From the sequence record NC_048205.1: 64,000 nucleotides of DNA; one strand, written 5' to 3'. Source of the stretch: Escherichia phage vB_Eco_mar004NP2. The notes beneath the pieces were generated by a model. It saw nothing but the letters and a program-made list of their open reading frames with translations, made no database searches and had not been told where the DNA came from. Positions 7,700 to 63,247 of the stretch are shown here, piece by piece. The translations under genes and the position numbers were made by a program. Each line of letters opens with the position of its first letter. Within the stretch, counting starts at the first letter, position 1.

Positions 7700-8206
7700 T
7701 TACACCTTAAATTGTTGTAAGGATTTACACATTTCAATATCTGGGCTAAATTCTAGCATATAGCTAACAGCTTTTAAATCTTGAAGATTTATCCCAGTCC
7801 TACCGTTGACTATAACCGTTGGATACTGATACATCATAGCACCAGCATCATCAAGCACACACCAATGTTTGAGCTTATGCTTTTCAACGAAACGGAGAAC
7901 AGAATTACCTCTAGATAGCCCACCCCCAGTAAAATCAGTTGTACCAAGAAAACGATCGATAAGACCTAATCCGGTCATAATCTGAACGTTCTCCATCTCA
8001 TTCCTGACAGAGAACCATGAGGATACTCCAACAATCATTATCGGAGAAGGACGAATAAAATCCTGAAAAGCCTTGAGAAGCGGTTTGAAAACCCAGTCAC
8101 TTCCAAAGAAAATCTTTTCATTATCAGGTGCATGATGATGGGAGATGCTCGAATTGAGCACCCCATCAATGTCTAGAAAAATAATTGGAGTATTACTTAT
8201 TTCCAT
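7700..8206 (-). CDS. HAD-superfamily hydrolase/phosphatase (putative)
   Basis: N-terminal IIFLDIDGVLN matches HAD motif I (DxDG); AAGGAA RBS. Confidence 0.55.
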   Translation of the reverse strand: MEISNTPIIFLDIDGVLNSSISHHHAPDNEKIFFGSDWVFKPLLKAFQDFIRPSPIMIVGVSSWFSVRNEMENVQIMTGLGLIDRFLGTTDFTGGGLSRGNSVLRFVEKHKLKHWCVLDDAGAMMYQYPTVIVNGRTGINLQDLKAVSYMLEFSPDIEMCKSLQQFKV

Positions 8207-8296: not shown

Positions 8297-9115
8297 TTAT
8301 TTCTTGCTTCTCGACACATAAGGTCTACCCTCTAAATGGGCTTCTACACGAGCAATAAAATCAGGGTCATTGAAAGCATCTACCGCACCTTTACTCCAGT
8401 AAGGGATACCACGTTCTTCCAGCTGGTACATCTCACTACGAGTCATACCTTGATAGCCCGGTTCCGCTGCGAGGGCACTATCATAGTAGTTAACAACCAT
8501 AAGTTTCGCAGCAGTCAAATTAAGAACAGGAAATAATTCCCAGTAGAAGTTAATTACTTGGTTAGAGCAACCAACCACAATGATCATATCTTGACTGGTA
8601 ATACCATCAAAAATATTGTACATTTCTGCATACGCTGGAGCATGCTCCCCAAAGAAGATTACATTAGGTTTAACCCATTTATAATCATCTGGATCAATAG
8701 AATTGTACCCTATATCAATAATCCGTTTATTGCTACTATTGTAGCTATCAGCTACAACAACCTCTTTTAAATATCCGTGAATGTGCAGAATGTCACTATG
8801 TGGAACGCCAGCACGCTCAATAAGGTCATCAACGTTGGTAGTCAAGTTTACTACCTGACCTGGATATTGTTTATACCATTCACCAATACGCAAATGTGCA
8901 AGATTGGGTTCAACAGTTTTTAGCTCTTCACGACGTTTGTTGTAAAACATATGGGTTTTATGGTAAAAATTACCACGAAAGGTATGAATATTACATACTT
9001 CTTCTAGATCATAATCATCCCACAGTGCTTTACCACTAGCAGTATCAGTACGAAAAGCTCGTACACCACTTTCAACACTCAAACCCGCACCGCTAATAAT
9101 AATTAATCTACGCAT
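8297..9115 (-). CDS. Sir2-family NAD-dependent deacetylase/ADP-ribosyltransferase-like protein
   Basis: IISGAGLSVESGVRAFR matches Sir2 GAG..ESG..FR motif; start taken at Met 9115 with AGGTGG RBS. Confidence 0.75.
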   Translation of the reverse strand: MRRLIIISGAGLSVESGVRAFRTDTASGKALWDDYDLEEVCNIHTFRGNFYHKTHMFYNKRREELKTVEPNLAHLRIGEWYKQYPGQVVNLTTNVDDLIERAGVPHSDILHIHGYLKEVVVADSYNSSNKRIIDIGYNSIDPDDYKWVKPNVIFFGEHAPAYAEMYNIFDGITSQDMIIVVGCSNQVINFYWELFPVLNLTAAKLMVVNYYDSALAAEPGYQGMTRSEMYQLEERGIPYWSKGAVDAFNDPDFIARVEAHLEGRPYVSRSKK

Positions 9116-9329
9116 TTTCCACCTGTTCTCTGAAGTTTTGCCCAATACTGTCTAATAGCTCAGCTAATTCTTTATTGCCTTTCTCCATTAAGGTATTAGC
9201 AATAACTTCTAGCATATTAGCGCAGGATTCAACACCATCCTTATAGCCAGTTTCCCAATGCTGCATTAATGCGTTTTCCAAAGCGGCATTTAAACCCTTA
9301 TCTGGTAGCATCGGCTTCGAGAATGCCAT
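9108..9329 (-). CDS. hypothetical protein
   Basis: ORF with AGGAG RBS. Confidence 0.55.
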   Translation of the reverse strand: MAFSKPMLPDKGLNAALENALMQHWETGYKDGVESCANMLEVIANTLMEKGNKELAELLDSIGQNFREQVENA

Positions 9330-20739: not shown

Positions 20740-21441
20740 ATGAAAGTAAAACCATTTGGTATGCTAGATATTGAATCTCTAGGAACTCCAGGAGATTGTG
20801 GTACTACTCATATCGTAATGCCTTCTTTCGCTTTTGTGGCTATGCATGGGGTTGATAAAGACCCTGATCTAGTATTTGTTACTTTGGATGTGCAGGATCA
20901 GCTTAATTCTGGTGCCAAAGTTACAGCATCTACTCTAGCATTCTGGATGGATCAAGCTAAAAATAGCCCCTCTGCTATCCACATTATGGAAGCTATGAAG
21001 GAACGTAATCCAAAACTGATTGCCTTCCAAAATGGTAAACATCATTGCACTAATAAATTAGGCTCAAACTATGCTGCCTTCTCTATGGCTCAAAATATTA
21101 TGGAGTTGGCTCTAGGCGAAAATGCTTTGTATTATGGCAATGGCCCAGAGTTTGATATGACTATCTACTCTGCAAACACGTTCCATGCTGGAACCAATGA
21201 AGAGGTAGTTCCATGGAAATTCTGGAATTTGGGTAATGTTCGATCTCTTCGTAATCTCTGGATGCAAGCTGGATACAGTTATAAGGCTCTAGAGACCGAA
21301 GGTATTAGCTGGGCAATAGCTAAAATGGAGAAGATGGACACCATTCGTTATGGGATCTATCCGGTTAAGCACGACCCAGCATTCGATGCCCTAGTTGAGA
21401 GTTATTGTGTTGCAGCTATGATCGAAAAAATGAAAATTTGA
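20740..21441 (+). CDS. DnaQ-like 3'-5' exonuclease (DEDDh)
   Basis: Exo motif I FGMLDIESLG and motif III H-x4-D (YPVKHDPAFDALV). Confidence 0.6.
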   Translation: MKVKPFGMLDIESLGTPGDCGTTHIVMPSFAFVAMHGVDKDPDLVFVTLDVQDQLNSGAKVTASTLAFWMDQAKNSPSAIHIMEAMKERNPKLIAFQNGKHHCTNKLGSNYAAFSMAQNIMELALGENALYYGNGPEFDMTIYSANTFHAGTNEEVVPWKFWNLGNVRSLRNLWMQAGYSYKALETEGISWAIAKMEKMDTIRYGIYPVKHDPAFDALVESYCVAAMIEKMKI

Positions 21442-21747: not shown

Positions 21748-22386
21748 ATGACTACTCGTATCTCTAAAACTCGCGCTCTAGCAACTATCAAATCTCTGGA
21801 AGCTAAAATCCGTAAAGCTACTGAACAACAGCTTCTGATCGCTGTTGGTGAAGGTAAGGATAAAAATAAGGTTGTAGTTGGCGCTGCAATCGAAGTAGAT
21901 GATTTATCTGAGCGTATTAAGACAGATTTCCAGTCTCTGCTGGATATGATGTCTCAGCGTGATCGTATCAAAGCTGCTCTGATTAAGAGCAATGCGGAAA
22001 CAGTAGTTGAGATTGGCTCTCGTAAGATGACTGTTGCGGAAGCAATTGAAGCTAAGCGTTCTATGGAGCTTAAAGCTCAACTGCTGGCTAACATGCGTAA
22101 GCAGTTCCATGCCGCTACGGTTAAATTTAATACGCAGAAAGCACAGTTTGATGCTAAATATGAGCGTTTGCAGGATAGCATGGCTACCCGCGATAAGAAA
22201 ACTTCCGAAGATGAAGTTAAAATGCAGCTCAACCTGCTGGAACTCAAGAATACTCCATTCTTGATTGATCCGCTGGAACTGGAGAAGCTGATTAAGCAGC
22301 ATGACGAGGAATACCAGGACTTTGCAACAAATGTTGACTTTGTTCTGTCCGAGTCTAACGCCTCTACCTTCATTGAAGTAGAGTAA
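21748..22386 (+). CDS. hypothetical coiled-coil protein
   Basis: 212 aa, RBS AAGGAAG. Confidence 0.6.
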   Translation: MTTRISKTRALATIKSLEAKIRKATEQQLLIAVGEGKDKNKVVVGAAIEVDDLSERIKTDFQSLLDMMSQRDRIKAALIKSNAETVVEIGSRKMTVAEAIEAKRSMELKAQLLANMRKQFHAATVKFNTQKAQFDAKYERLQDSMATRDKKTSEDEVKMQLNLLELKNTPFLIDPLELEKLIKQHDEEYQDFATNVDFVLSESNASTFIEVE

Positions 22387-22769
22387 TAATTTAAAAGCTA
22401 GTAAATCGGTAGACGAAAGCCCAAGCATCTTACCTCGCAGCAGCGGTTGAAATACGAGGTTAAATAAGACCGCTGACCATACTATAAAGTATAATCTATT
22501 GGAGATTATGTTTATTACACCAGCCTTTTAAGCTGACACGTAAGAACAAAGCGTCGTTGATATTACCGACACAACTTCAAAGATCAACATTTAAGTATGA
22601 AAGCTGAAAAGTTTAAAGAACTCAAACTTCTAAACTTCTAAAGCTAAAAGATGCAAAGTATTCGTTGATGATTCAAACCCTAGATCAAAGGTACATGGCT
22701 CATAAGATATGGCCTGTGGCGCCTCTAGGCTGTTTATCGGTTTACTAGTTTCACAATTTAAAAATGTAT

Positions 22770-22798
22770 TTGCTAATCCACTAAATTATATGTATAAT
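22770..22798 (+). promoter_or_regulatory. T5-type early promoter
   Basis: -35 TTGCTA / 17 bp / -10 TATAAT. Confidence 0.6.
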
Positions 22799-22828
22799 AT
22801 ATTTTTAAATTGATGAAACGAGGCTATT

Positions 22829-23146
22829 ATGACTTTTCATATTTTGATTGATGATGTGCGTAATCTTCATGGAATGGACATTATCATTCGAACCCCAGAA
22901 GCCGCTGTAGAGTTTCTGAATAAAACTGATACCACAGGCCATTTCGTTTATATGGATAATGACTTGGCTGTAGATGGTATGGAAGGTTATCAAATTCTTC
23001 GTTTACTCTTAGAATTTGGGCAGAGACCAAAGAAAGTGGTACTAGTAACCTCGAACCCAGTAGCTAAGCAAAATATGCGTAATGATTTGCTTGACTTAGG
23101 GTATAAAGAAAATTCCAATCGTGTTGAATATGATTGGCAGGAGTAA
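22829..23146 (+). CDS. CheY-like receiver (REC) domain protein (putative)
   Basis: ILIDDV...YMDNDL...VDGMEGYQILRLL...VVLVTSNP aligns by eye with receiver-domain fold. Confidence 0.45.
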   Translation: MTFHILIDDVRNLHGMDIIIRTPEAAVEFLNKTDTTGHFVYMDNDLAVDGMEGYQILRLLLEFGQRPKKVVLVTSNPVAKQNMRNDLLDLGYKENSNRVEYDWQE

Positions 23147-23151
23147 AAAGA

Positions 23152-23601
23152 ATGAAGGCAGCTTTGCTTTTAGTAGCTGCCCTTACCTTCAGCTTTAGTA
23201 GTCAGGCATCGCACGATGCAAAAGAAATAGATTGCATTGCTAAAAATATCTATTTCGAAAGTCGTGGTGAGGGCATAAAGGGAATGACGGCGATTGCACA
23301 TGTTACTAAAAACCGTGTAAACTCCGGTAAATTCCCAGATTCCTACTGTAAAGTAGTATATCAGTCTAACCAGTTCTCTTGGGTATCTAAGAGACCAAAA
23401 GTTGATAAAACTGATGAGGCTTGGCAAACCGCCAAGAATTTAGCTAGAGTGATATACTACGTTGATTTACCACAAGATCCTACACATGGAGCACTATACT
23501 TCCATAGTGGTAAAGATAAACCTTACTGGACAAAGAAGTTTAAGAAAACAACTAAGATTAAGGGACATACGTTTTATAAACCTGTTGTCACTAAAACTTA
23601 A
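23152..23601 (+). CDS. secreted cell-wall hydrolase, SleB-like
   Basis: Signal peptide then NIYFESRGEG...AHVTKNRV..GKFPDSYCKVVYQSNQFSW pattern; start at ATG 23152 with AGGAG. Confidence 0.65.
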   Translation: MKAALLLVAALTFSFSSQASHDAKEIDCIAKNIYFESRGEGIKGMTAIAHVTKNRVNSGKFPDSYCKVVYQSNQFSWVSKRPKVDKTDEAWQTAKNLARVIYYVDLPQDPTHGALYFHSGKDKPYWTKKFKKTTKIKGHTFYKPVVTKT

Positions 23602-24291: not shown

Positions 24292-24320
24292 TTGCTAAAT
24301 GCTTATAAATTCTGTATAAT
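24292..24320 (+). promoter_or_regulatory. T5-type early promoter driving about 900 nt without an ORF
   Basis: -35 TTGCTA / 17 bp / -10 TATAAT. Confidence 0.6.
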
Positions 24321-24558
24321 ATATTCATAAATTAGAGAACAGCGAGCCGATTACGCTGAACTTGTCTTAATGTAAGATGCGTCAAGCACTAAGATTCGTT
24401 GAATAGAGTCGGTGGGTTAGTTGTAAAACTAGTACACAGGGGGCGGCAATCCCGGTTAGTGGCTAGAACGTGTAAAATGAGGCGTCTGAAACCTCTCCCC
24501 TAAACTCTTCTCTAATTTATAAATAGTGGGGTGTGGAAATCACTTATGTAGTAACACT

Positions 24559-24630
24559 GCCGTCCTAGTATAATTGGTATTATCAAGCCGTAACTGGTGG
24601 AAGATGTAGGTTCGAATCCTACGGTCGGTA
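24559..24630 (+). pseudogene. tRNA-like element lacking a foldable anticodon arm (possible tRNA pseudogene)
   Basis: Acceptor-like pairing GCCGTCC/GGTCGGT and perfect T-arm GTAGG-TTCGAAT-CCTAC but no anticodon stem; no CCA. Confidence 0.3.
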
Positions 24631-25132
24631 AGAACTGGATAACTGATGCTTTTAACGTAAAAGCTTCCGAGGTTAGTTGCGCACTGCCTAAACCACGCGG
24701 TAGTTGGTTCCAGACTAACCAACCAGTCTGCTGAATAGTTTTATTACGATTTAACTATGCCCAGGCTAAAGAAGAACTTTAGAAGGTATTCTAGGGTAGT
24801 GAAGTTCTTTCTCCATATCGGAGTAGTTTTTCAAGCTATCCACAAAGTGGGAAATGCTGACATGAGAGATGTCACTAATGGTGCACAATAGCACAGGTAA
24901 TTCGCGATAACTCCTGTTGAGTAGCAGCAAAAGGTGGGAAGTCATGACCCCAAGCCTAACCGAGTCCTCAATATACCGCAGGACATAACCACTAAGTCAC
25001 CCTGACTTAAACTGGAAAATAATAGACGTTACCGTATTTTGTCTTGAAATACTTAATGAGTGAGACTTATGACTCTCCCGGTATCGTCTGTATTTTTAAG
25101 AGTTTTTACGAGAGTTCTTAAAAATACTTAAA

Positions 25133-45023: not shown

Positions 45024-45269
45024 ATGTTAGCGGAACAAGCAAAACGTTTAGCTAGGATAAATAGAGCTGCAATTCTTAAGAGCAGAAAGAAACCATATAA
45101 GTATGTTAAAAAGAGAATAGTTTCTTCTGTGGAGATTGGAGGTTCTTTTGTACAGTTTAATCGTGATGAAATTAGTTATGAAGCTATAAAAGCCCTCTAT
45201 AAAGAGGGTTATACTCTCCAACTATCTAATGAGTATGGCACAACTATTTTAACTGTTATTTGGGAATAA
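45024..45269 (+). CDS. hypothetical protein
   Basis: 81-aa ORF. Confidence 0.5.
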   Translation: MLAEQAKRLARINRAAILKSRKKPYKYVKKRIVSSVEIGGSFVQFNRDEISYEAIKALYKEGYTLQLSNEYGTTILTVIWE

Positions 45270-45271
45270 TT

Positions 45272-46135
45272 ATGAAAAAAGAATTTAATGTACATAAAAC
45301 TCTAGTAGTGCCAGATGATGCCAACTTGTTTTTCGTTGGTGATATTCATGGATGCAATGATTTGCTGGAAGATGCGTTGAAATTAGCTGGGTATAATAGC
45401 AAGAAAGATTGCGTAGTATGTGTTGGTGACTTAATTGACCGGGGCACACAAAACTTACAAGTTTTAGCTAAATTCTTATATAATCCACGTTTTTGTAGCG
45501 TTCGTGGAAATCATGACCAGTTTATGATTGTAGGAGATTGGGCTAACTGGATGTATAATGGAGGTATGTGGGCTATGAATGAGCTGGACGCAGATACCAT
45601 TAAAAATATTGCCGAAGACATGGCTGAAAAACTTCCAGTATTTATGACTGTGCTGCATCGTGGCAAGAAGTATGGTGTTGTTCATGGTGGTGTACCTTTT
45701 ACATACAAAGAATGTGGTAACGAAGTAGAAACTCCAGTATGGGATAACCTTATTGCACAAGTAGAAGCAGCTAAGGAAGACCCACATGACCATCCTGGAT
45801 ACCATGTTGAACCATATTTATGGGATCGAGATGTAATACAAGAAATAGGCTTCCATTTGTCCAAAAATGGTGAGGAACACCCGTATTTCCAGCGTTATTC
45901 TGGGTTTAAAGAAAAATACATGGTAGAAATACCTCCAGTTAGTGGGGTAGACTTTGTGTTTCATGGGCATACTGGAGTACCTTACCCTATTTTACACCAA
46001 AATCGTGTTTACTTAGATACTGGCGGTGTTTTCAACGGGCAGTTGACGGTTGCGCAAGTTAATGATGAAACTGGCAAAATCACAACATTTACCACGCTTC
46101 GCGAAGATAGCTGTGGCATACAGAGGATTCTTTAA
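45272..46135 (+). CDS. Ser/Thr protein phosphatase-like metallophosphatase
   Basis: GDIHG, GDLIDRG, GNHD calcineurin-like motifs. Confidence 0.7.
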   Translation: MKKEFNVHKTLVVPDDANLFFVGDIHGCNDLLEDALKLAGYNSKKDCVVCVGDLIDRGTQNLQVLAKFLYNPRFCSVRGNHDQFMIVGDWANWMYNGGMWAMNELDADTIKNIAEDMAEKLPVFMTVLHRGKKYGVVHGGVPFTYKECGNEVETPVWDNLIAQVEAAKEDPHDHPGYHVEPYLWDRDVIQEIGFHLSKNGEEHPYFQRYSGFKEKYMVEIPPVSGVDFVFHGHTGVPYPILHQNRVYLDTGGVFNGQLTVAQVNDETGKITTFTTLREDSCGIQRIL

Positions 46136-46656
46136 TGAAAGTCTGCTTTTGGAGCGATCTACACTTAGGACATGCAAATATTACTAAATTCAGACCAATC
46201 TTCTCTACTATGGAAGAGCATGATGAATTTATTATGGATACTATTACATCCATGAAAGATAAGCGTACAGTATTTTATATTTTAGGGGATGCATTTGTAT
46301 CTAGAAATGGTTTGGAGAAATTCGAAAAACTCTTTAGTAATGTTAGAACTACATTAGTTTTGGGGAACCACGACTTAGAACGAGAAGGGTTATCTTTCAA
46401 AGACTTAGTGGGAGTTGTAGATAACGTACAATCCCTAGTTAAGTATAAAAACTTTTGGCTTTCCCATGCTCCAGTACATCCAGAAGAGTTAAGGGGCAAG
46501 AAGAACTTACATGGGCATACTCACTTTGAGTTAATGGGGGACCCTCGTTATATTAACGTTTGTGTAGAGTATGCAAAATCACCAGTACGCCTGGAAGACA
46601 TCATGAATGGTAAGTACACTTCTCATGATAAAACTAGCTGGATGTTAAATGTCTAA
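46135..46656 (+). CDS. calcineurin-like metallophosphoesterase
   Basis: DLHLGH, GNHD, HGHTH motifs. Confidence 0.6.
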   Translation: MKVCFWSDLHLGHANITKFRPIFSTMEEHDEFIMDTITSMKDKRTVFYILGDAFVSRNGLEKFEKLFSNVRTTLVLGNHDLEREGLSFKDLVGVVDNVQSLVKYKNFWLSHAPVHPEELRGKKNLHGHTHFELMGDPRYINVCVEYAKSPVRLEDIMNGKYTSHDKTSWMLNV

Positions 46657-62512: not shown

Positions 62513-63247
62513 ATGAATAAAGCTATCATGAATCTTTCCCGCAGCTTCCCGCATATTTCCCGCGTCATGATTTGGGATTTAGACGGCACTATCATTAATT
62601 CTTTCCATCGTGTAGCACCCTGCTTTGATAGCGAGGGCAATTTAGATTTAAATAAGTATAAAAATGAAGCGTGTAAACACCATTTAATAATGCAAGATAC
62701 TTTATTGCCATTGGTTGAATATATGCGCCAGTGCATGAATGACGCAAATACTTTAAACATTATTTGCACCGCTCGACTGATGAGTAAGTCGGACTATTAT
62801 TTCTTGCGTAAACAAGGGTTGCGCGGTCGTGGTAATAGTAATATCCGCGTATTTTCCCGCGATACACTACACAAATATTTTAAAGCTGATAAGGTTAGCG
62901 AAATATACCACAGCAAAGACGCAGTATATAAATCTTATTATTTTGAATTATTTAAACAGTTATATCCTAACGCTGATTTTACAATGATTGATGATCATAA
63001 AGGCGTGCTATCAGCGGCAGCGTCATACGGATTTAAAACGCTGGACGCACAAGCCGTTAATGATATTCTATCAATCGGCGTGGCATTGATAGGTGAAACC
63101 TTTATTGATGAATCTCTCGACGATGATAATGATTATCAATTCCTAGCTGACCGTTTAAAATTATGCTGGGAAGGTATGACCGAGGAAGAACGCGCAGAAT
63201 ATAGTTGCAGTCCTCAACAATATATTGAGAAATTAAAAGTTGCCTAA
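62513..63247 (+). CDS. dmp: HAD-family 5'-deoxyribonucleotidase (dmp-like)
   Basis: RVMIWDLDGTIIN HAD motif I; 244 aa; pre-early location. Confidence 0.6.
   Translation: MNKAIMNLSRSFPHISRVMIWDLDGTIINSFHRVAPCFDSEGNLDLNKYKNEACKHHLIMQDTLLPLVEYMRQCMNDANTLNIICTARLMSKSDYYFLRKQGLRGRGNSNIRVFSRDTLHKYFKADKVSEIYHSKDAVYKSYYFELFKQLYPNADFTMIDDHKGVLSAAASYGFKTLDAQAVNDILSIGVALIGETFIDESLDDDNDYQFLADRLKLCWEGMTEEERAEYSCSPQQYIEKLKVA

What the first reader, a model, noticed from the sequence alone, without database searches (positions are those of the whole stretch)
22829..23146. Orphan CheY-like receiver domain encoded by the phage
The 105-aa ORF has the acidic pocket (DD near the N-terminus, a conserved Asp in YMDNDL) and alternating beta-alpha pattern of a response-regulator receiver domain, but no output domain. 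A standalone receiver could interfere with host two-component signalling.
Basis: inference. Interest (0 to 1): 0.45.

Follow-up and report, generated by a model that had tools for sequence, protein, structure and literature searches.

The report
Phage T5 cREC receiver-like protein
The small gene is real and does have a receiver-like fold, but it is the T5.084 ortholog, a member of the already described phage "cREC" family, which lacks key signalling features of CheY and is predicted (not yet shown) to process cyclic phosphates in RNA repair or NAD-derived metabolism rather than to tap host two-component signalling.

The parts
22829..23146 (+). CDS for a 105-aa standalone cREC (cyclic-phosphate processing receiver) domain protein, the ortholog of T5.084
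22770..22798 (+). Sigma-70-like promoter, TTGCTA-17 nt-TATAAT, for the cREC gene
   Evidence: Consensus scan, 10 of 12 matches. The T5 record annotates a promoter at the equivalent place, just upstream of T5.084. This is a consensus match only; expression was not measured.
22820..22823 (+). Shine-Dalgarno GAGG, 5 nt upstream of the ATG
   Evidence: Read directly from the sequence.
8297..9145 (-). SIR2-family gene, a candidate functional partner. This is inferred; the gene is about 14 kb from cREC, not adjacent.
   Evidence: PF02146 at E=1.3e-24. 57.7% identical to the rV5 SIR2 that lies directly downstream of a cREC gene and an RNA ligase gene. The ORF start may be over-extended because the listed start is TTG.
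7700..8206 (-). HAD 'Swiss Army Knife' RNA-repair-type phosphatase gene next to SIR2, a candidate functional partner (inferred)
   Evidence: PF18143 HAD_SAK_2 at E=7.4e-20. Its distribution across T5-like phages matches that of cREC. This pairing is described for the T5-like phage SP15 in PMC9503650.
24559..35013 (+). Phage tRNA gene cluster starting 1.4 kb downstream of cREC. These tRNAs are possible beneficiaries of RNA end repair (context only).
   Evidence: 21 tRNAs by ARAGORN. 23 Rfam tRNA matches.

Best explanation
The gene encodes the T5.084 ortholog, a standalone member of the cREC family (Pfam PF20274). The family is a stripped-down, divergent branch of the receiver (CheY-like) fold found mostly in phages. 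Shown here: it keeps the receiver's acidic pocket at the C-terminal edge of the sheet (D8, D9, D43, T74). It has lost alpha1, alpha5 and the conserved Lys. It has gained invariant or near-invariant R11, R21, D45 and N76. Inferred: the pocket is a catalytic or phosphate-binding site for a phosphorylated nucleotide or RNA end, not a site that receives phosphate from a histidine kinase. The D43-x-D45 arrangement resembles the nucleophile plus acid/base pair of HAD phosphatases. That suggests a phospho-aspartyl mechanism, probably Mg2+-dependent through D8/D9. The most likely role is the one predicted by Iyer, Burroughs, Aravind and colleagues: opening or processing cyclic phosphates. The substrates would be 2',3'-cyclic phosphate RNA ends left by host anticodon or other metal-independent nucleases, or ADP-ribose 1'',2''-cyclic phosphate made during NAD-dependent removal of a 2'-phosphate. 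In this phage it would act as an early gene together with the phage SIR2 and the adjacent HAD 'Swiss-army-knife' phosphatase to clean damaged tRNA/RNA ends. Because T5-like phages have no Rnl1-type ligase, sealing would need a host ligase such as RtcB. Alternatively, the point may be to remove the cyclic-phosphate species rather than to religate. Family membership is close to certain (about 0.97). The stated confidence refers to the cyclic-phosphate or phosphoester processing function.
Against: No member of the family has been tested biochemically. PMC9503650 says cREC is 'experimentally uncharacterized', and my literature searches found nothing later. In this phage cREC is not adjacent to SIR2/HAD (about 14 kb apart). 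Its immediate neighbours (SleB-like hydrolase, DUF7616, YqeY-like) give no RNA-repair signal. T5-like phages lack an Rnl1-type RNA ligase. Several divergent neighbourhoods are uninformative blocks of small unknown ORFs. I made no formal enrichment test. Co-distribution across T5-like phages is lineage-level and not independent evidence. The HAD-like reading of DxD is my inference. The authors who defined cREC call the site metal-independent, whereas I expect Mg2+.
Confidence: 0.45

Rival explanations
1. First reader's model. The protein is an orphan CheY-like phospho-acceptor that takes phosphoryl groups from host histidine kinases or Hpt proteins (a phosphate sink), or mimics a response regulator, and so perturbs host two-component signalling.
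For: The fold is receiver-type. Four of the five canonical receiver residues are conserved: D8, D9, D43 and T/S74. Y92 aligns with the CheY switch residue Y106. Single-domain receivers acting as phosphate sinks exist in bacteria (my background knowledge).
Against: It fails PF00072 (12.5 bits against 30.2). The K109-equivalent position is N95, and no column there exceeds 20 of 89 Lys. Alpha1 is replaced by a 10-11 residue loop in 67 of 89 family members. From published kinase-regulator complexes, as I recall them, alpha1 is the main docking surface for the kinase DHp/Hpt helices. Alpha5 is absent. No HisKA, HATPase_c or Hpt gene appears in any of the sampled neighbourhoods. The extra invariant residues R11, D45 and N76 and near-invariant R21 are not receiver features. 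The family's defining papers state it is never found in histidine-kinase systems.
Confidence: 0.06
2. The protein is a non-catalytic sponge or sensor. It binds and sequesters a nucleotide-derived immune signal or a cyclic-phosphate RNA end without hydrolysing it, in the manner of phage sponge proteins such as Tad1/Tad2 or Acb2. This would silence host defence or host sensors of 2',3'-cyclic phosphate.
For: It is a small standalone early phage protein. Invariant R11 and near-invariant R21 suit binding of an anionic ligand. Pfam Acb3 and Acb5 families lie within 6 kb of cREC in two divergent phage contigs. The missing alpha1 and alpha5 should leave one face of the sheet uncovered, which could drive oligomerisation (inferred).
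Against: Near-absolute conservation of an acidic triad plus Thr/Ser at the exact positions used for phospho-aspartate chemistry in receivers is more typical of catalysis than of simple binding. The tight RNA ligase-cREC-SIR2 gene string in rV5 points to an enzymatic pathway. PADLOC gives no match, and BFVD returns no characterised relative.
Confidence: 0.17
3. The protein is an accessory or regulatory subunit of the downstream SleB-like cell-wall hydrolase, with which it appears to be co-transcribed.
For: Only 5 nt separate the cREC stop from the hydrolase start at 23152. No terminator-like site was found between them. The pairing is conserved across T5-like phages, including the divergent HNH-fused lineage.
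Against: The pairing is absent outside the T5 subfamily. In My1 the downstream gene is the DUF7022 ortholog, in nt-1 the neighbours are unknown small ORFs, in rV5 it is SIR2, and other loci also lack it. The hydrolase ORF starts with a hydrophobic, signal-peptide-like N-terminus, so it probably works outside the cytoplasm, whereas cREC has no such sequence.
Confidence: 0.03

Closest known systems
cREC (cyclic-phosphate processing Receiver) domain, Pfam PF20274, defined by Iyer et al. 2021 (PMC7824862) and 2022 (PMC9503650)
   Same: It passes the family model well above the cutoff. It shares the family's invariant D8/D9, R11, D43-x-D45 and T/S74-x-N76. It is a small standalone phage protein. 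There is no histidine-kinase context. It shares a genome with SIR2 and an RNA-repair-type HAD phosphatase. Some GenBank and UniProt records already give orthologs this name.
   Different: Nothing at the family level. In T5-like phages the gene is not adjacent to SIR2, RNA ligase or Nudix genes, unlike the textbook neighbourhoods. No phage Rnl1-type ligase is present.
CheY / response-regulator receiver domain (Pfam PF00072)
   Different: It is below the PF00072 cutoff. There is no conserved Lys after beta5 and no alpha1 or alpha5. It has extra invariant R11, D45 and N76 and near-invariant R21. It has no kinase partner.
rV5-type RNA ligase-cREC-SIR2 gene string (Vequintavirus; 'type 2' neighbourhood of PMC9503650)
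   Same: It has an orthologous SIR2 (57.7% identity) and a cREC of the same family (29% identity, E=1e-6). Calcineurin-like phosphoesterases occur in both genomes.
   Different: In rV5 the three genes are contiguous and include a T4 Rnl1-type ligase and a P-loop kinase. In the T5-like phage cREC is about 14 kb from SIR2, the SIR2 partner is a HAD_SAK_2 phosphatase, and there is no Rnl1.
HAD-superfamily phosphatases (DxD motif I); a working analogy only
   Same: Both use a Rossmann-like sheet with an Asp nucleophile at a strand end, and both have a second Asp two residues later. Here these are D43-[N/H]-D45, with D43 invariant and D45 near-invariant (88 of 89). Both have a Thr/Ser on a neighbouring strand. 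The known similarity between receiver and HAD active sites is from my background knowledge.
   Different: The DxD sits after beta3, not beta1. There is no cap domain and no HAD Pfam match. This is not a membership claim.
2H phosphoesterases (LigT / CPDase type)
   Same: They are predicted to do the same job, resolving 2',3'- or 1'',2''-cyclic phosphates, in the same kinds of phage RNA-repair neighbourhoods (PMC9503650).
   Different: The fold and catalytic residues are unrelated (two HxT/S motifs in 2H). The 2H activity is experimentally established and the cREC activity is not.

Membership tests
cREC (PF20274) | Scores above the curated Pfam gathering threshold over most of the model | tested here: met
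   56.8 bits against a cutoff of 27, E=3.8e-15, model positions 2-86 of 88.
cREC (PF20274) | Conserved aspartates at the receiver active-site positions, plus family-specific conserved residues | tested here: met
   D8, R11, D43 and N76 are invariant. D9 and D45 occur in 88 of 89, R21 in 86 of 89, and T/S74 in 89 of 89 across a diverse alignment. The window protein has all of them.
cREC (PF20274) | Receiver-type (Rossmann-like) fold | tested here: met
cREC (PF20274) | Never associated with histidine kinases | tested here: met
   No HisKA, HATPase_c or Hpt in the window's closest annotated record, or in the T5, nt-1, rV5 and My1 regions examined, or in 10 divergent metagenomic loci. This is a sample, not a census.
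cREC (PF20274) | Gene-neighbourhood or fusion links to NAD/ADP-ribose processing or RNA-repair genes | tested here: inconclusive
   Met for the family: the rV5 RNA ligase-cREC-SIR2 string, a locus with WYL and SIR2, and a CTP_transf_like fusion. For this phage there is only same-genome co-occurrence with SIR2+HAD_SAK_2 about 14 kb away and proximity to the tRNA cluster. The immediate neighbours are unrelated.
cREC (PF20274) | Hydrolysis or processing of cyclic phosphates, the activity that gives the family its name | not testable with these tools
   A prediction only. PMC9503650 states the family is experimentally uncharacterised, and no later study was found.
Classical response-regulator receiver (CheY-like, PF00072) | Scores above the Pfam gathering threshold for Response_reg | tested here: not met
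   12.5 bits against a cutoff of 30.2, E=0.17. The best CheY chain in the PDB sequence search has E=0.35.
Classical response-regulator receiver (CheY-like, PF00072) | Acidic pair after beta1, phospho-acceptor Asp after beta3, Thr/Ser after beta4 | tested here: met
   D8/D9, D43 and T74 are conserved and in register with CheY D12/D13, D57 and T87.
Classical response-regulator receiver (CheY-like, PF00072) | Conserved Lys after beta5 (CheY K109) | tested here: not met
   The aligned position is N95. Across 89 sequences no position within 5 residues after Y92 has Lys in more than 20.
Classical response-regulator receiver (CheY-like, PF00072) | Complete (beta-alpha)5 fold including alpha1, the kinase/Hpt docking helix, and alpha5 | tested here: not met
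   Model elements are E4-7, E18-20, H23-32, E39-42, H53-62, E69-72, H77-90 and E100-102. The D9-to-R21 spacing is 10-11 residues in 67 of 89 sequences, and the median tail after Y92 is 12 residues.
Classical response-regulator receiver (CheY-like, PF00072) | Phosphotransfer from a cognate histidine kinase or small-molecule phosphodonor | not testable with these tools
   Needs in vitro phosphorylation assays. No candidate kinase is encoded nearby.

The most novel reading that the evidence does not exclude
cREC is a true phospho-aspartyl enzyme. It would be a receiver scaffold converted to HAD-like DxD chemistry that opens 2',3'-cyclic phosphates on nuclease-cut tRNAs, or ADP-ribose 1'',2''-cyclic phosphate. 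In T5-like phages it would work with the distant SIR2+HAD pair as a ligase-less end-healing pathway. That pathway would either hand clean ends to the host ligase or erase the cyclic-phosphate 'damage signal' that host sensors such as RtcR or WYL/CARF regulators read, protecting the phage's tRNA-based counter-defence.
Probability: 0.2. Interest if true: 0.6.

Novelty: already known. Interest (0 to 1): 0.27.

Why it matters
The evidence points instead to a known but biochemically untested family. T5 is a tractable model phage. Its cREC gene (T5.084) is a compact 105-aa, single-domain member of that family, and it shares a genome with a SIR2, an RNA-repair-type phosphatase and a large tRNA set. 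That makes it a convenient place to test what cREC domains do, and whether phages heal or hide RNA damage inflicted by host tRNA nucleases. For annotation, the gene should be named 'cREC domain protein (T5.084 family)' rather than 'response regulator' or 'hypothetical protein'.

Tried and rejected
1. NCBIfam and PADLOC scans gave no match.
2. The PDB sequence search gave nothing significant. The top hits were spurious designed beta-trefoils, and the best CheY chain had E=0.35.
With the closer alignment it returned almost only T5-like loci, so divergent contexts were sampled one at a time with the look-up of encoding contigs.
5. Literature searches for T5.084, its accessions, PF20274 and phage receiver domains found only the two Aravind-group papers.
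6. I considered functional coupling to the co-transcribed SleB-like hydrolase and rejected it, because the pairing is not conserved in My1, nt-1, rV5 or the metagenomic loci.
7. The 'polynucleotide kinase' annotation near the window's right end (62513..63247) has no Pfam support and was not used.
8. Baret coordinates are not exactly collinear with the window in places, which caused two failed translations. I re-derived coordinates from the ORF listing.
9. Model coordinates are not exposed. I could not measure residue clustering, surface hydrophobicity of the uncovered sheet face, or dimer geometry.
10. The CheY residue-index printout was off by one and is not used.

Full report
**Observation**

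The window carries an ATG-initiated ORF of 105 codons at exactly 22829..23146 on the + strand. GAGG lies 5 nt upstream of the ATG, at 22820..22823. A TTGCTA-17-TATAAT promoter-like site (10 of 12) lies at 22770..22798. The phage T5 reference record annotates a promoter at the same relative place.

Nineteen distinct orthologous coding sequences were collected from related phages. The 18 full-length (315-nt) ones gave a median dN/dS of 0.086 over the 121 pairs with dS > 0.1. The ORF is therefore a real gene under strong purifying selection.

**Genome context**

The window is a T5-like phage (Demerecviridae, Tequintavirus). It is 99.9% identical to Escherichia phage Baret over the 3 kb tested, and 446 phage records match that stretch. 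The gene is the ortholog of T5.084 (YP_006912.1, 95% identical), which the T5 record lists as a hypothetical protein. At least one GenBank record (PP094244.1) and several UniProt/NCBI entries already call it 'cyclic-phosphate processing receiver domain-containing protein'.

It lies in the early region:
- Downstream, 5 nt away, is a SleB-type cell-wall hydrolase gene (PF07486).
- Next come a DUF7616 gene and a YqeY-like gene.
- Then comes the phage tRNA cluster, with 21 genes by ARAGORN and 23 Rfam tRNA matches between 24559 and 35013.

**Profile searches**

The classical Response_reg model PF00072 fails, at 12.5 bits against a cutoff of 30.2 (E=0.17). PF20274 cREC_REC passes clearly, at 56.8 bits against a cutoff of 27 (E=3.8e-15), covering model positions 2-86 of 88. 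PHROG 1479, of unknown function, matches at 2.9e-30. NCBIfam and PADLOC give nothing. No solved structure is a significant sequence relative; the best CheY chain has E=0.35.

**Family**

A profile search of the 5.8-billion-protein collection returned 119 homologs. All but one carry a precomputed PF20274 assignment, and nearly all are 93-121 aa standalone proteins. The exhaustive search of cluster representatives found 1,025 clusters at 50% identity with E <= 1e-10. This is a large family found mostly in phages.

In phage GenBank records, homologs detectable with this protein occur in three groups:
- T5-like phages
- Pectobacterium phage My1
- About 50 Vibrio jumbo phages of the KVP40/nt-1 type

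A more distant member (29% identity) sits in rV5-like phages.

**Conserved residues**

In an 89-sequence diverse alignment:
- D8, R11, D43, V73 and N76 are invariant.
- D9 and D45 occur in 88 of 89 sequences, and R21 in 86 of 89.
- G53 occurs in 88 of 89, and P67 and Y92 in 86 of 89 each.
- Residue 74 is Thr in 76 and Ser in 13.
- Residue 44 is Asn in 45, His in 42 and Ser in 2.

A profile comparison with E. coli CheY is weak (probability 6%, E=0.006). The register it gives is the expected one: D43 opposite the phospho-acceptor D57, T74 opposite T87 and Y92 opposite Y106. The position opposite K109 is N95. No position within five residues after Y92 has Lys in more than 20 of 89 sequences.

So four of the five canonical receiver residues are kept and the Lys is not. 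The family adds its own invariant or near-invariant residues: two arginines, a second Asp two residues after the acceptor-position Asp, and an Asn two residues after the Thr.

**Structure**

AlphaFold2 with the 89-sequence alignment gives a confident model, with mean pLDDT 93.1 and pTM 0.85. Its elements are strand 4-7, strand 18-20, helix 23-32, strand 39-42, helix 53-62, strand 69-72, helix 77-90 and strand 100-102.

Two receiver helices are missing:
- The segment between the acidic pair and beta2 is a 10-11 residue loop in 67 of 89 family members, where CheY has alpha1.
- The median tail after Y92 is 12 residues, too short for beta5 plus alpha5.

From published kinase-regulator and phosphotransferase-regulator complexes, as I recall them, alpha1 is the main surface that docks on the kinase. 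Its absence argues directly against phosphotransfer from host kinases. Both missing helices pack on the same face of the sheet in receivers, so that face should be uncovered here. That suggests self-association or a partner. I could not test this because model coordinates are not exposed.

**What the family is said to be**

Iyer et al. 2021 (PMC7824862) defined cRec as a divergent receiver domain never found in histidine-kinase systems. They linked it to NAD/ADP-ribose-processing enzymes, RNA ligases and WYL regulators, and proposed that it processes cADPr or 2',3'-cyclic phosphates.

Iyer et al. 2022 (PMC9503650) state that the family 'remain[s] experimentally uncharacterized'. They describe sirtuin-centred predicted RNA-repair neighbourhoods, including one typified by the T5-like phage SP15, in which SIR2 is joined to a 'Swiss-army-knife' HAD phosphatase. 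My searches found no later experimental work and no paper mentioning T5.084.

**Independent checks of the context claims**

In rV5_ev147 I confirmed a contiguous string:
- T4-type RNA ligase (PF09511)
- then cREC (PF20274, E=4.5e-15)
- then SIR2 (PF02146)

The intergenic distances are -4 and +8 nt. Next to the string, and divergently oriented, are a P-loop kinase (AAA_33) and a calcineurin-like phosphoesterase.

The rV5 SIR2 is 57.7% identical to the SIR2 in this window. In the window, SIR2 at 8297..9145 (-) lies next to a PF18143 HAD_SAK_2 phosphatase at 7700..8206 (-).

Across phage records the three genes are co-distributed in the T5-like lineage. For cREC, HAD and SIR2 the Salmonella-phage counts are 269, 271 and 289, and the Escherichia-phage counts are 128, 128 and 374. 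My1 was confirmed only for cREC and the HAD gene. Fifty Vibrio phage records appear in both the cREC and SIR2 sets. This co-occurrence is at the level of lineages and is not strong statistical evidence.

Other supporting contexts:
- A cREC fused to a cytidylyltransferase-like nucleotidyltransferase domain
- A cREC near WYL-WCX and SIR2 genes beside an integrase
- A cREC within 6 kb of CTP_transf_like, Thg1 and Acb5 genes
- A NAD kinase gene and an Acb3 gene near another cREC
- An isochorismatase-family gene near another

Several loci were uninformative runs of small unknown ORFs. One cREC lies among housekeeping genes of a candidate Parcubacteria genome. No histidine kinase or Hpt domain appeared anywhere.

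**Points against a simple RNA-repair story in this phage**

- cREC is about 14 kb from SIR2/HAD, and its immediate neighbours are unrelated.
- T5-like phages lack an Rnl1-type RNA ligase. Only 14 of the 841 matching phage records are Salmonella phages, against about 270 Salmonella-phage records with cREC.
- The 'polynucleotide kinase' annotated near the right end of the window has no Pfam support.

If the pathway heals RNA ends, sealing must use a host ligase. Otherwise the purpose is to remove cyclic-phosphate species rather than to religate.

**Mechanism proposed (inference)**

The conserved residues all sit at strand ends or just after them, which is where receivers and HAD phosphatases carry out phospho-aspartate chemistry. 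The D43-x-D45 pair resembles the HAD nucleophile plus acid/base pair. D8/D9 would hold Mg2+. T/S74, N76, R11 and R21 would hold the phosphate.

I therefore favour a phosphoesterase acting through a phospho-aspartyl intermediate on a cyclic or terminal phosphate of RNA or an ADP-ribose derivative. This matches the published prediction, except that I expect metal dependence. I put the probability of this function at about 0.45. Family membership is about 0.97.

Rivals:
- A non-catalytic binder or sponge for such a ligand: 0.17
- An accessory of the co-transcribed SleB-like hydrolase: 0.03. That pairing is confined to the T5 subfamily. In My1 the downstream gene is the DUF7022 ortholog.

**Verdict**

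- The fold call is right at superfamily level.
- The functional reading, interference with host two-component signalling, is not supported.
- The gene belongs to an already described and already annotated family whose activity is still untested.
- Novelty: already known. Interest is modest, mainly because T5.084 would be a convenient model for finally testing what cREC domains do.

Noticed in passing
L034 4485..5306 (IMG/VR T5-like contig); also OK272477.1 JLBYU43_103 = L042 1985..2806: In a divergent T5-like lineage (JLBYU43, Kenya-K38) the cREC domain is 51% identical to the window protein. It keeps D8, D9, R11, R21, D43, D45, T74 and N76, with N44 changed to S. It forms the C-terminal ~100 aa of a 273-aa ORF whose N-terminal ~170 aa is annotated as an HNH endonuclease. 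This is an in-frame homing-endonuclease::cREC fusion in the same syntenic slot. Whether the domain is made as a fusion or from an internal start is unknown.
   Followed up: partly
window 7700..8206 (-) and 8297..9145 (-): A HAD_SAK_2 'Swiss Army Knife RNA repair' phosphatase (PF18143, E=7.4e-20) lies next to a SIR2-family gene (PF02146, E=1.3e-24). The closest GenBank record labels both 'NAD-dependent deacetylase'. The first is really a HAD phosphatase.
   Followed up: partly
window 20740..21441 (+): This gene is annotated 'exonuclease' or 'metallopeptidase' in different records. It matches PF16473, Rv2179c-like 3'-5' exoribonuclease (E=1.1e-7), which makes it another possible RNA-end-processing enzyme close to the cREC gene.
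   Followed up: no
window 21748..22386 (+): This 212-aa ORF is widely annotated 'tail fiber protein' in T5-like records. It has no Pfam match, lies in the early region, and is rich in predicted coiled-coil-like sequence. The annotation looks doubtful. Baret instead annotates an antisense ORF (21904..22428, -) there.
   Followed up: no
window 24559..24630 (+) and about 24300..25130: Rfam finds a weak tRNA-like element (35.5 bits) that ARAGORN does not call and Baret labels 'tRNA-OTHER'. It lies inside the region that the T5 record annotates as 'RNAX, stable RNA with unknown functions', between the YqeY-like gene and tRNA-Arg.
   Followed up: no
window 62513..63247 (+): This 244-aa ORF is annotated 'polynucleotide kinase' in phage Baret and has no Pfam match at E <= 0.01. 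The label is unsupported by this test.
   Followed up: partly
L004 6434..7870 (Vibrio phage nt-1) and L047 4408..5802: In two T4-like phage contexts the cREC gene is followed, immediately or within 1.1 kb, by a DUF2828+DUF7788 protein and then a PF04308 RNaseH_like protein. The nt-1 record annotates the DUF2828+DUF7788 protein as 'RNA-binding protein'. This may be a conserved cREC-linked module in that lineage.
   Followed up: no
window 45260..46135 (+) and 46135..46656 (+): Two adjacent calcineurin-like phosphoesterase genes (PF00149, E=9.5e-16 and 9.2e-7). Calcineurin-like phosphoesterases also recur near cREC genes in other phages (L038, L041, L047, rV5).
   Followed up: no
window residue 96 of the cREC protein (codon at 23114..23116): The window's protein has Ser at position 96, where 14 of the 17 other full-length T5-like ortholog sequences have Pro and 3 have Ser. 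The site is variable, in the C-terminal hairpin, and is probably neutral.
   Followed up: no
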